Below are positions 31,701 to 34,700 of a stretch of 64,000 nucleotides of DNA, piece after piece (position 1 is the stretch's first letter; every line of letters begins with the position of its first letter). The stretch is from Escherichia coli (lineage in GTDB: Bacteria; Pseudomonadota; Gammaproteobacteria; Enterobacterales; Enterobacteriaceae), in NCBI RefSeq assembly GCF_017348835.2, contig NZ_CP071375.1. The stretch is one strand, 5' to 3'. Position numbers: made by a program.

Positions 31701-34700
31701 TTTAACATCATAAATTTGCAGCAGTTTCTCCAGCATTGCCTGTGCGGCATTCCCGGTGCTGTATGAATCGGTTACTGATATATTTTCCTGCATAGATTTA
31801 ACCGGCCATCTGAGATGGCCGACAGGTTAACATAATTACAGCCATTTAGGGCCACGCGCTTAGCCCGCGGGTGAAAACGCATCTATCACCTTGTGATCGA
31901 CACCTTCATTCTCCCCCGCCAGTTCGGCACTGAGCTTCGCCATAAACTCGACTAAAAATTGCGCGTTGTGCTGCGCCAGCTGCTTGCCTCTTGCGGTTTG
32001 CATGGTTTGCGGTAGCTTCAGCAACTTAGTCTGGAAATGATCCAGCGCGTAGCGTTTATCATCAAGCGGGCGATGCTGTGCGAACGGATCTTCACCATCA
32101 AACAGCGCCACGCCCAATGCCCCTGAAACGGCAAACACGCGCGCCAGGCCAATCGCCCCCAGGGCTTCCAGCCGATCCGCATCCTGGACGATTTTAGCTT
32201 CCGTTGTTAAGGGGGCGATTTGCGCGCTGAAACTGTGAGCGGCAATGGCATGACAAACGGCCTCAATTTTCTCCGCCGGAAATTGCACGAACTCTTCACG
32301 GAGCAGGCGACGCGTCTCTTCTGCCGCCAGGATTGAAGAACGCTGCCGTTGCGGATGATTTTTCGCCAGGCTCACAATATCGTGGAAATAACAGGCGGTT
32401 AAAATCACCAGCATATCGACGTCATCATCTGCCGCCAGCTTCTGTGCCGTAGCCCAGACGCGGCGAAAATGACACAAGTCATGGGCCGCGTCCTGGTGCT
32501 GATGATGGTTTTTCAACCAGTTTTCGAACTGTGCCTGCCAGTGTTGTAAGTCCATACGCGCTCCGTTGCCAAAGAGTCGCCACCTTAGCAGTTTTTATTC
32601 ATAGCGTCTGCTACGTGCGGGACGAGGTCGGGTGTACCAGGCAATGCTGCCTAACAATGCCCCGACCAGAGCCATAAATAAAAATCCGACCAGTGCCCCT
32701 AACCACTTTCCCGCGGTAGAGCCTAAATCGCTTTCAAATCCCGACACGGGGGCATCGGGGATCCGGCTCATCACCCAGATGTAACGCGCCATTGCCCAGA
32801 CGAAATAGCCACACCATGTATAGAAAGCCCACAAAGCCAGTTTGCCGCCAGGGCTGCGAGAGAGTCTCTCTTCCATCTTTGTCGAACCGTATTCCATTTT
32901 GAGATAACCCGGAAAATTCAGACTTAGTACTATTATGTGATAAAAGTCACATTTTTCCACATTGAATGAGCCAGTCAAGACTCAATCATTTTTTGAACAA
33001 ATAGATAAATTTTGCGCAACGGCAGTGAATACAGGAAAAATCGTTTTGAGCGATTTTATTTATCTTTGATATCGGCTTTATTAATTCATTCAATCAATAT
33101 ATTAGCACTGATTACAATTATACCTTTTTATTATTCTGTGTCATGATGCTTCCGTTATTAGCCTTTTATCGTCTTGTTTATATTTTTTGGGCCGGCATGA
33201 TGCCGGCTTTTTTTTATGCCTTCATTAATGTGCGCGTGATCACACCAGCCGTTTAGCGCAACAATCATTGATACCCCCTATCTTTCCGCTCAACTCATAA
33301 CATATTGATATGCATTTATAATTTTCATGAATATTTATATTTAGAATTCATAATTCTGAATTATATTAAATAGATTGGAAACATTTTGAAATCTTTTAAA
33401 TATATTTGTTACATGTAATCTTTAAAATAAAATGAACTTCATAGAATAGTATCCAAATGTGCTTTTTTTTTGGATAACGGCACTTATTGATATATTCATG
33501 AAGATTATAATCACAAGGGAATACATAATGAAAAGAAAAGTTCTGGCAATGCTGGTCCCGGCGTTATTAGTTGCTGGCGCAGCAAATGCGGCTGAAGTCT
33601 ATAATAAAGATGGTAATAAACTGGATTTCTACGGAAAAGTAGCAGGTCTGCACTACTTCTCTGACAACTCGGGCGCTGATGGCGATATGTCATATGCCCG
33701 TATCGGTTTCAAAGGCGAAACACAAATCGCTGACCAGTTCACTGGTTACGGTCAGTGGGAATACAACCTGCAAGCAAATGGCACAGAAGGCGATGGAGAT
33801 AACTCTGCTACCCGTCTGGCATTCGCAGGTTTAGGTTTTGGTCAGAATGGTACTTTCGATTATGGTCGTAACTACGGTGTCGTATATGACATCGAAGCAT
33901 GGACCGATATGCTGCCAGAATTTGGTGGCGATACCTACGCGGGTGCCGACAACTTCATGAACGGTCGTACCAACGGTGTTGCAACCTACCGTAACAATGG
34001 CTTCTTTGGTCAGGTTGATGGCTTGAACTTTGCTTTGCAATATCAGGGTAATAATGAAAGTGGTGGACCATTCGGGCAGGAAGGTTCCGGTAGTGGTGAT
34101 GGCCGTAGCCTTTCCAAGGAAAATGGTGATGGTTTCGGTATGTCAACATCCTACGACTTCGACTTCGGTTTAAGTCTGGGTGCTGCATATTCAAACTCTG
34201 ATCGTTCAGATCGTCAGGTTGGAGTTGGTTTAAATGATCGTAACCATAGCAACAGAAATGCTGGTGGTGAAACCGCTGAAGCATGGACTGTTGGTGCAAA
34301 ATATGATGCTAATAATGTGTATTTAGCAGCTATGTACGCTGAAACTCGCAATATGACCCCATATGGTGGTGGCGAGTTTGATAATGGTGAATCAAGATCA
34401 GCCATCGCTAACAAAACCCAAAACTTTGAAGTTGTTGCTCAGTATCAGTTCGACTTTGGCCTGCGCCCGTCCATCGCTTACCTGCAATCTAAAGGTAAGG
34501 ATTTAGGCGGTTGGGCTCATGACGGTAATGGCGATCCGCATTACACCAACAAAGATCTGGTTAAATATGTTGATATTGGTATGACCTACTACTTCAACAA
34601 AAACATGTCCACCTACGTTGATTACAAAATCAACCTGCTGGACAACGACGACGACTTCTACAAAGAAAACGGCATCGCTACCGATGATATCGTAGCTGTG

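What the first reader, a model, noticed from the sequence alone, without database searches (positions are those of the whole stretch)
33143..33256. Orphan terminator-like hairpin and a 37-codon hydrophobic ORF upstream of the porin gene
A strong hairpin (GCCGGCAT/ATGCCGGC) followed by T8 lies on the plus strand at 33191-33215, about 310 bp upstream of the porin start. No plus-strand gene precedes it, since yedR and yedJ are on the minus strand. A 37-codon hydrophobic ORF (MMLPLLAFYRLVYIFWAGMMPAFFYAFINVRVITPAV) spans the hairpin but has no recognisable RBS. The structure could be the terminator of an unannotated small RNA or a regulatory leader element.
Basis: seen in the sequence. Interest (0 to 1): 0.35.

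Follow-up and report, generated by a model that had tools for sequence, protein, structure and literature searches.

The report
Terminator of the known sRNA RseX
The "orphan" hairpin is the transcription terminator of RseX, a known 91-nucleotide E. coli regulatory RNA, and the 37-codon ORF across it is a chance reading frame, so the finding is real but ordinary.

Summary
They are not orphan. Window 33125-33214 matches Rfam RF01401 (rseX) over the full model at 97.7 bits against a gathering score of 50. Window 33125-33215 is 91/91 identical to the ncRNA rseX (b4603) annotated in E. coli K-12 MG1655, in the same position between drpB (yedR) and the porin gene yedS. The hairpin plus U-tail is RseX's Rho-independent terminator.

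RseX is a published Hfq-dependent sRNA. It represses ompA and ompC, fimB and ihfB, and fepA. The fepA effect requires the loop of this terminator. H-NS silences its transcription.

RefSeq PGAP annotations do not list it, which explains why it looked unannotated.

The ORF is not a gene. It has no Shine-Dalgarno sequence. Its last 41 nt, including the stop codon, lie beyond the RNA 3' end. Across 15 homologues its length changes (18 to 54 codons), its frame shifts at T-run length polymorphisms, or its ATG is absent, while the nucleotide core stays invariant.

Verdict: already known, low interest.

The parts
33125..33215 (+). rseX gene: the 91-nt Hfq-dependent small regulatory RNA RseX
   Evidence: Rfam RF01401 matches at 97.7 bits (gathering score 50), E 6e-14, model positions 1-94/94. 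It is 91/91 identical, in an ungapped alignment, to K-12 ncRNA rseX b4603 at NC_000913.3 2033649-2033739.
33113..33118 (+). Putative -10 hexamer TACAAT of the rseX promoter, ending 7 nt before the annotated +1
   Evidence: Read from the sequence and identical in K-12. PMC8313858 reports an upstream sigma-70 consensus and 5'-end mapping from Douchin 2006. The assignment of this hexamer is my inference. The promoter scan did not call it because the -35 is weak.
33090..33095 (+). Weak candidate -35 (TCAATC; TTAATC in K-12), with a 17-bp spacer to the -10
   Evidence: Inferred from spacing only. The one difference from K-12 upstream of the RNA is at 33091.
33138..33162 (+). 5' stem-loop of RseX (Rfam helices: RNA positions 14-15 with 37-38 and 19-23 with 30-34)
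   Evidence: From the Rfam consensus structure. 94-100% of cells are paired across 13 distinct sequences, but there is no covariation, and the middle pair is G-U or unpaired. It is a weak helix and is not in the centroid fold.
33153..33173 (+). Invariant core CGTTATTAGCCTTTTATCGTC (RNA positions 29-49), a candidate target-pairing or Hfq-contact region
   Evidence: Invariant in all 13 distinct sequences from E. coli, four other Escherichia lineages and Citrobacter amalonaticus. Its role is inferred. The ompA binding site has not been mapped (PMC8313858).
33183..33188 (+). Internal U tract (T6) just upstream of the terminator; its length varies between strains (T4-T8)
   Evidence: Its length changes shift the frame of the overlapping ORF.
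33189..33209 (+). Terminator hairpin: 7 Watson-Crick pairs GCCGGCA/UGCCGGC plus 2 G-U pairs, with loop UGA at 33198-33200
   Evidence: Terminator scan. Fold energy -14.6 kcal/mol, z -3.77. The stem core is invariant, with one compensatory G-C to A-U change in Citrobacter. Mutation of the loop abolishes fepA repression by RseX+52 (PMC11979758).
33208..33215 (+). U8 tail of the Rho-independent terminator; 3' end of RseX
   Evidence: Sequence. The K-12 annotated 3' end maps to 33215. The tail is T7 or T8 in all homologues.
33143..33256 (+). 37-codon ORF (MMLPLL...TPAV): a chance reading frame, not a gene
   Evidence: No Shine-Dalgarno sequence, and 41 nt including the stop codon lie beyond the RNA 3' end. 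Across 15 homologues the length from the equivalent start is 37, 42, 31, 54, 18 or 39 codons, or there is no ATG at all. No Pfam or NCBIfam hit.
32595..32897 (-). drpB (yedR), the divergent upstream neighbour (context)
   Evidence: K-12 annotation mapped through the alignment and ORF list.
33528..34721 (+). Intact yedS-type porin gene, the downstream neighbour (context)
   Evidence: ORF. Pfam Porin_1 at E 1.6e-143. NCBIfam OmpC subfamily at 542.8 bits.

Best explanation
Window 33125-33215 (+) is the gene for RseX, a known 91-nt trans-acting small RNA of E. coli. The GCCGGCA/UGCCGGC hairpin with its U8 tail is the Rho-independent terminator of that RNA.

Shown in published experiments on the identical K-12 sequence:
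- RseX is made as a primary transcript.
- It represses ompA and ompC mRNAs in an Hfq-dependent way.
- It binds fimB and ihfB mRNAs near their start codons and represses them.
- It represses fepA through its 3' part, where the loop of this terminator is required, together with Hfq and RNase E.
- H-NS (backed up by StpA) silences its transcription, so the RNA is barely detectable in wild-type cells.

Shown here:
- Identity with K-12 rseX and membership of the Rfam family.
- Conserved position between drpB and a porin gene.
- Conservation at the nucleotide level, not the codon level.

Inferred:
- Transcription starts from the weak sigma-70 promoter with -10 TACAAT at 33113-33118.
- By analogy with other Hfq sRNAs (my own knowledge of that class), the terminator hairpin and U tail also form the Hfq-binding module.
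- The overlapping 37-codon ORF is not translated into a functional protein.
For: Identity with RseX:
- RF01401 matches full length at 97.7 bits against a gathering score of 50.
- K-12 MG1655 annotates 'small regulatory RNA RseX' b4603 between drpB and yedS. An ungapped alignment places it at window 33125-33215 with 91/91 identity.

Distribution:
- The 132-nt stretch is present in 4878 of 5426 complete E. coli genomes.
- Homologues that pass the Rfam threshold (70.9-95.2 bits) occur in E. albertii, E. whittamii, two unnamed Escherichia species and Citrobacter amalonaticus.
- Synteny holds wherever the fetched DNA reaches. A porin gene lies downstream in all six loci. drpB lies upstream in five; the E. 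coli E69 locus ends just after rseX. yedJ lies beyond drpB in four, plus a short partial hit in Escherichia sp. MOD1-EC7003.

Structure:
- The terminator stem core is invariant, with one compensatory change. 95% of cells are paired, against 21-58% when the 3' partners are slid by 1-3 columns.
- The hairpin fold has z = -3.77.

Literature:
- PMC8313858: H-NS silencing, northern detection in a delta-hns strain, targets ompA/ompC, fimB and ihfB, sigma-70 promoter and terminator.
- PMC7648144: a 91-nt RNA that down-regulates OmpA and OmpC.
Against: - No expression data exist for this particular strain.
- RseX is hard to detect in wild-type K-12 (PMC8313858).
- No rseX entry was found in the held supplementary tables of a K-12 3'-end mapping study (PMC7815308). 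Actual termination at 33215 in this genome is therefore inferred from sequence identity.
- The putative -35 is weak and differs from K-12 at 33091.
- The whole-RNA fold is not unusually stable (z = -1.33).
- The 5' stem-loop shows no covariation.
Confidence: 0.97

Rival explanations
1. The ORF at 33143-33256 encodes a small hydrophobic membrane protein. The locus would then be a small-protein gene, or a dual-function sRNA like SgrS/SgrT.
For: The ORF exists, begins with ATG ATG and is strongly hydrophobic. Some E. coli lineages keep a 37-codon frame with a similar C-terminal part (window, O157, isolate 30348_2#44).
Against: - There is no Shine-Dalgarno sequence.
- The stop codon lies 41 nt past the terminator, so the terminated RNA would be a non-stop message.
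- ORF length from the equivalent start is 37, 42, 31, 54, 54, 18 (in four lineages, ending at the UGA of the terminator loop) or 39 codons.
- The first codon is ATC in three E. coli strains, and Citrobacter has no ATG (ATT ATC).
- Frame changes come from T-run length polymorphisms while the nucleotide sequence stays conserved.
- The hydrophobicity is explained by 42% T content.
- There is no family hit.
- ORFs of this size occur 4.9 times per kb in the window.
Confidence: 0.02
2. The hairpin is an attenuator within a long 5' leader of the porin gene. Transcription from the rseX promoter would read through conditionally to express the porin.
For: - RseX and the porin gene lie on the same strand, 313 nt apart, and this tandem arrangement is kept in all six species examined.
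- Read-through of sRNA terminators is known for DsrA and SgrS (discussed in PMC8313858).
Against: - The terminator is strong: 9-bp stem, 6 G-C pairs and U8.
- No alternative pairing competes with it in the MFE or centroid fold of the RNA.
- The 313-nt spacer is AT-rich and has its own promoter-like sites at 33340-33367 and 33406-33433.
- The RNA works in trans when expressed alone from plasmids (PMC8313858, PMC11979758).
- No riboswitch or leader family matches.
Confidence: 0.04
3. The hairpin is a chance inverted repeat in an AT-rich intergenic region and has no function.
For: The simple terminator pattern occurs about as often as in shuffles of the region: 1 found against 1.1 expected.
Against: - It is part of a full-length covariance-model match at 97.7 bits.
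- It is conserved from E. coli to Citrobacter, with a compensatory change.
- The hairpin folds with z = -3.77.
- There is experimental evidence for the RNA and for a role of the terminator loop (PMC11979758).
Confidence: 0.005

Closest known systems
RseX sRNA (rseX, b4603; Rfam RF01401) of Escherichia coli
   Same: Everything testable agrees:
- 91/91 identity to the K-12 gene.
- Full-length match to the covariance model.
- The same position between drpB (yedR) and yedS.
- The same terminator, loop and U tail.
   Different: - Nothing differs within the RNA.
- Upstream, one substitution at 33091 in the putative -35.
- Downstream, the neighbouring porin gene is intact here but is a pseudogene in K-12.
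Other porin-controlling Hfq-dependent sRNAs encoded next to porin genes (MicF beside ompC, MicC beside ompN), and the envelope sRNAs MicA, RybB and OmrA/B
   Same: They are short primary transcripts with a Rho-independent terminator and U tail. They act in trans with Hfq on outer-membrane protein mRNAs (PMC8313858 lists these as sharing targets with RseX). The genomic linkage of sRNA and porin gene is from my own knowledge of micF/ompC and micC/ompN.
   Different: - They are unrelated in sequence; only RF01401 passes its threshold here.
- RseX is co-oriented with its neighbouring porin gene rather than divergent from it.
- It is silenced by H-NS rather than induced by sigma-E or OmpR (PMC8313858).
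SdsR and ArrS: sRNAs whose terminator loops mediate fepA repression
   Same: In PMC11979758 the 3' parts and terminator loops of RseX, SdsR and ArrS are all required to repress fepA through a far-upstream stem-loop of its 5' UTR. [quoted passage not shown]
   Different: These are different RNAs at different loci. RseX behaved somewhat differently from the other two with the compensatory stem mutant of fepA.
Dual-function sRNAs encoding small proteins (for example SgrS/SgrT)
   Same: An ORF lies inside an sRNA gene.
   Different: Here the ORF runs through and beyond the terminator, has no ribosome-binding site, and is not conserved as a frame.

Membership tests
RseX sRNA (Rfam RF01401) | Score at or above the family's curated gathering threshold over the whole model | tested here: met
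   97.7 bits against 50, model positions 1-94/94, E 6.1e-14.
RseX sRNA (Rfam RF01401) | Orthologous position: between drpB (yedR) and the yedS porin gene, co-oriented with yedS | tested here: met
   The K-12 annotation maps without gaps onto the window. A downstream porin gene was found in all six other genomes, and drpB upstream in the five whose fetched DNA extends that far.
RseX sRNA (Rfam RF01401) | 3' Rho-independent terminator (G+C-rich stem, U tail) ending the roughly 91-nt RNA | tested here: met
   9-bp stem, loop UGA and U8. Conserved, with one compensatory change.
RseX sRNA (Rfam RF01401) | Own sigma-70 promoter giving a primary transcript | tested here: inconclusive
   TACAAT lies 7 nt upstream of the annotated +1 and is identical to K-12. 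The -35 is weak and the scan did not call the site. The 5' end was mapped experimentally in K-12 only (PMC8313858, citing Douchin 2006).
RseX sRNA (Rfam RF01401) | [quoted passage not shown] | not testable with these tools
   Published for the identical K-12 sequence (PMC8313858, PMC11979758). Not measured in this strain.
Small membrane protein gene or dual-function sRNA | Reading frame, start codon and length conserved among homologues | tested here: not met
   Lengths are 18-54 codons, the frame shifts at T runs, and the ATG is missing in some homologues.
Small membrane protein gene or dual-function sRNA | Ribosome-binding site, and a stop codon inside the transcript | tested here: not met
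   No Shine-Dalgarno 4-mer lies in the 20 nt upstream, and the stop codon is 41 nt beyond the RNA 3' end.
Transcription attenuator or leader of the downstream porin gene | Alternative (anti-terminator) structure competing with the terminator, or a match to a known leader or riboswitch family | tested here: not met
   The MFE and centroid folds contain the terminator with no competing pairing. The Rfam E-value search of 32500-33700 gives only rseX above threshold.
RyhB (RF00057), Esr41 (RF02676) and STnc430 (RF02053) | Score at or above the gathering threshold | tested here: not met
   23.1 against 55, 19 against 102, and 22.7 against 47 bits. The alignments shown (RyhB, STnc430) rest largely on the generic terminator hairpin.

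The most novel reading that the evidence does not exclude
RseX and the adjacent yedS-type porin gene may form one co-inherited, H-NS-silenced 'porin-swap' module. When silencing is lifted, the alternative porin would be made while RseX removes OmpA and OmpC (and FepA) to make room for it.

What does not exclude this reading:
- The tandem rseX-porin arrangement is kept from E. coli to Citrobacter amalonaticus.
- The intergenic region is 29.7% G+C against 50.4% for the window.
- 'RseX and surrounding areas' rise together in hns mutants (PMC8313858).
- K-12, where all the experiments were done, carries only a yedS pseudogene, whereas this genome has an intact porin gene.

I found no evidence that RseX pairs with the porin's own translation initiation region.
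Probability: 0.15. Interest if true: 0.35.

Novelty: already known. Interest (0 to 1): 0.06.

Why it matters
It matters mainly as an annotation point. RseX has a curated Rfam model and a K-12 gene number, yet every PGAP-annotated RefSeq E. coli genome I inspected, and every one listed in the search, shows no feature at this position. A sequence-only reader therefore rediscovers it as an orphan. The case also shows how a U-rich sRNA can mimic a hydrophobic small-protein ORF. Nothing here changes what is known about RseX.

Two observations have modest use:
- An rseX homologue exists in Citrobacter amalonaticus, in conserved synteny.
- This strain, unlike K-12, has an intact neighbouring porin gene, so it would be a better background than K-12 for asking what RseX is for.

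Tried and rejected
1. Coding potential of the ORF. I rejected it after comparing 15 homologues, checking the ribosome-binding site and transcript end, and searching Pfam and NCBIfam without a hit.

2. Pairing between RseX and the translation initiation region of the adjacent porin. RNAduplex of RseX against -80..+30 of the porin gave -32.0 kcal/mol, against -31.1 +/- 4.4 for 500 dinucleotide shuffles (fraction at or below the observed value 0.40). There is no signal, and the test is crude.

3. Term-seq evidence for the 3' end. The held supplementary files of PMC7815308 have no rseX, yedS or drpB entry. This is uninformative, because RseX is silenced in wild-type K-12.

4. The original RseX paper (Douchin et al. 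2006, PubMed 16513633) is not held in the library. Its results are cited only through later papers.

5. Sub-threshold Rfam hits to RyhB, Esr41 and STnc430 were rejected as terminator look-alikes.

6. A bidirectional terminator. On the minus strand the hairpin is followed by CCCAAAAAA, not by a T run, so it terminates only plus-strand transcription.

7. The near-consensus minus-strand promoter as the drpB promoter. This is not supported, because the mapped drpB promoter lies between the old GTG start and ATG-22 (PMC7648144).

Full report
**Observation**

GCCGGCAT lies at 33191-33198 and ATGCCGGC at 33200-33207, followed by eight T at 33208-33215. A consensus scan reports the hairpin as a 9-pair stem (33189-33209, six G-C pairs, loop of 3) with a T-rich tail. 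The 32-nt segment folds at -14.6 kcal/mol, z = -3.77, and only 1 of 200 dinucleotide shuffles does as well.

The 37-codon ORF at 33143-33256 with the quoted translation is listed. No Shine-Dalgarno-like 4-mer precedes it. The porin ATG is at 33528, preceded by AAGGGA, which is 313 nt after the T run. yedJ (31860-32555) and yedR/drpB (32595-32897) are on the minus strand.

**What it is**

An Rfam search of 32500-33700 gives one hit above threshold. RF01401 (rseX, 'Hfq binding RNA') matches window 33125-33214 on the plus strand at 97.7 bits against a gathering score of 50, E = 6e-14, covering model positions 1-94 of 94. The hairpin and U run form the 3' helix and tail of the model.

The E. coli K-12 MG1655 record annotates 'ncRNA rseX, b4603, small regulatory RNA RseX' at 2033649-2033739. 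It lies between drpB (formerly yedR) and the pseudogene yedS, with dcm and yedJ upstream and hchA downstream. That is the gene order of the window.

An ungapped alignment of 261 nt maps the K-12 gene onto window 33125-33215 with all 91 positions identical. The four differences in the 261 nt lie outside the RNA, at 33091, 33236, 33255 and 33282.

The 'orphan' hairpin is therefore the Rho-independent terminator of a known sRNA gene. It looked orphan for a simple reason. In PGAP-annotated RefSeq genomes the matching stretch carries no feature at all: 'none' appears under every listed match, and only drpB and the porin flank it.

**Distribution and conservation**

The 132-nt stretch (RNA plus the rest of the ORF) is found in 4878 of 5426 complete E. 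coli genomes, almost always once and on the chromosome.

A scan of one genome per species with the Rfam-conserved core retrieved six loci:
- E. coli E69
- E. albertii
- E. whittamii
- two unnamed Escherichia species
- Citrobacter amalonaticus

All six pass the RF01401 threshold, at 70.9-95.2 bits. All six have a porin gene downstream. drpB lies upstream in five of them; the E. coli E69 locus ends just after rseX. yedJ was found beyond drpB in four, with only a short partial hit in Escherichia sp. MOD1-EC7003.

In an alignment of 13 distinct RNA sequences, three elements are invariant:
- the core CTGTGTCAT.AT.....CGTTATTAGCCTTTTATCGTC
- the stem CCGG..../....CCGG
- the T tail

For the Rfam structure, 95% of cells are paired, against 21-58% when the partners are slid by 1-3 columns. 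The terminator has one compensatory G-C to A-U change, in Citrobacter. The 5' stem-loop shows no covariation.

**The ORF**

From the position equivalent to ATG 33143, the open frame varies across 15 homologues:

| Homologue | Open frame |
|---|---|
| window, O157 | 37 codons |
| K-12 (stop replaced by TGG) | 42 codons |
| E. coli 20220828076 | 31 codons |
| ETEC H10407, E15 | 54 codons |
| E. coli E69, E. whittamii, two Escherichia sp. | 18 codons, ending at the UGA of the terminator loop |
| E. albertii | 39 codons |
| Citrobacter amalonaticus | no ATG (ATT ATC) |

- Three E. coli strains (isolate 30348_2#44, E15, Nissle 1917) have ATC in place of the first ATG.
- Strain N96 has the ATG, but its downstream frame differs again.
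- The frame changes come from length polymorphism of two T runs: T4-T8 before the terminator and T7-T8 after it. The nucleotides around them stay the same.
- This is the signature of RNA-level constraint, not protein-level constraint.
- The ORF's last 41 nt, with its stop codon, lie beyond the RNA 3' end.
- Its hydrophobicity follows from 42% T, with 20 of 37 codons having T in the second position.
- ATG ORFs of 37 codons or more occur 4.9 times per kb in this window.
- Neither Pfam nor NCBIfam recognises the peptide.

**How it works (from the literature, for the identical K-12 sequence)**

- It was first predicted from an upstream sigma-70 consensus plus a Rho-independent terminator (Chen 2002). 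5'-end mapping suggested it is a primary transcript. Repression of ompA and ompC depends on Hfq (Douchin 2006, as reported in PMC8313858).
- Native expression escaped detection for years. PMC8313858 shows that H-NS, with StpA as backup, silences it. The same paper detects the RNA, plus a species of about 75 nt, by northern blot in hns mutants. It also validates fimB and ihfB as direct targets bound near their start codons.
- PMC11979758 shows that RseX represses fepA and that its last 40 nt (RseX+52) suffice. Mutating the terminator loop abolishes the effect. [quoted passage not shown]

The loop is UGA in all 12 Escherichia sequences and UUU in Citrobacter.

The intergenic region is 29.7% G+C against 50.4% for the window, which fits H-NS binding. 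I infer the -10 as TACAAT at 33113-33118, 7 nt before +1. The -35 is weak (TCAATC here, TTAATC in K-12).

**Rivals**

- A small-protein gene is rejected on the grounds given above.
- A leader or attenuator of the porin gene is unlikely, for four reasons:
  - The terminator is strong and has no competing fold.
  - The spacer has its own promoter-like sites.
  - No leader family matches.
  - The RNA acts in trans from plasmids.

  Some read-through cannot be excluded without transcript mapping.
- A chance hairpin is excluded by conservation and by experiment.

**What led nowhere**

- The duplex check against the neighbouring porin's initiation region was no better than shuffles.
- A K-12 3'-end mapping study holds no rseX entry in its stored supplements, as expected for a silenced gene.
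- The original 2006 paper is not in the library.

**Verdict**

The ORF is spurious. Novelty: already known. Interest is low.

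Noticed in passing
window 33528-34721 (+): The yedS-type porin gene is intact here: 397 aa, Pfam Porin_1, NCBIfam OmpC subfamily at 542.8 bits. The K-12 copy is a pseudogene. The copy in strain PE164, whose intergenic region is 100% identical to the window, is split by an IS3-family element. The O157:H7 PV15-279 copy is frameshifted.
   Followed up: partly
window 33144-33117 (minus strand): A near-consensus sigma-70-like site, ATGACA-16 nt-TATAAT (11 of 12 matches), points towards drpB and overlaps the rseX +1 and 5' end. Its -35 complement TGTCAT is invariant in all homologues. 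The mapped drpB promoter lies elsewhere, between the old GTG start and ATG-22 (PMC7648144). This is either an unassigned antisense or divergent promoter, or a chance match in AT-rich, H-NS-bound DNA.
   Followed up: partly
window 33183-33188 and 33208-33215; loci L009-L014: RseX alleles differ in T-run length (T4-T8 before the terminator, T7 or T8 in the tail). ETEC H10407 has a C-to-A change that breaks one stem pair. Isolate 30348_2#44 has a tail interrupted by C (UCUUUUUU). Effects on termination or Hfq binding are unknown.
   Followed up: no
L004 1944-2040 (Citrobacter amalonaticus S646): An rseX homologue (70.9 bits, above the Rfam threshold) has about 8 extra nt before the terminator, loop UUU, and a compensatory A-U stem pair. 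It sits in the same yedJ-drpB-rseX-porin order. The family therefore extends outside Escherichia.
   Followed up: partly
window 33091: A single C/T difference from K-12 lies inside the candidate -35 of the rseX promoter (TCAATC against TTAATC).
   Followed up: no
E. coli genome collection (no window coordinate): 548 of 5426 complete E. coli genomes give no match to the RseX stretch. At least one (strain S1-CAM-01-C) retains only 35 nt of the drpB-proximal end of the intergenic region, which suggests deletion of the rseX-porin segment in some lineages.
   Followed up: no
window 32595-32978 (minus strand): The mechanical ORF for drpB/yedR is 127 aa from a TTG start. The experimentally supported protein is 100 aa, starting at the ATG at 32897 (PMC7648144).
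   Followed up: yes
window 32898-33527: The drpB-porin intergenic region is 29.7% G+C against 50.4% for the whole window. The literature uses it as a host-informative marker for E. coli source tracking (PMC11267920).
   Followed up: no
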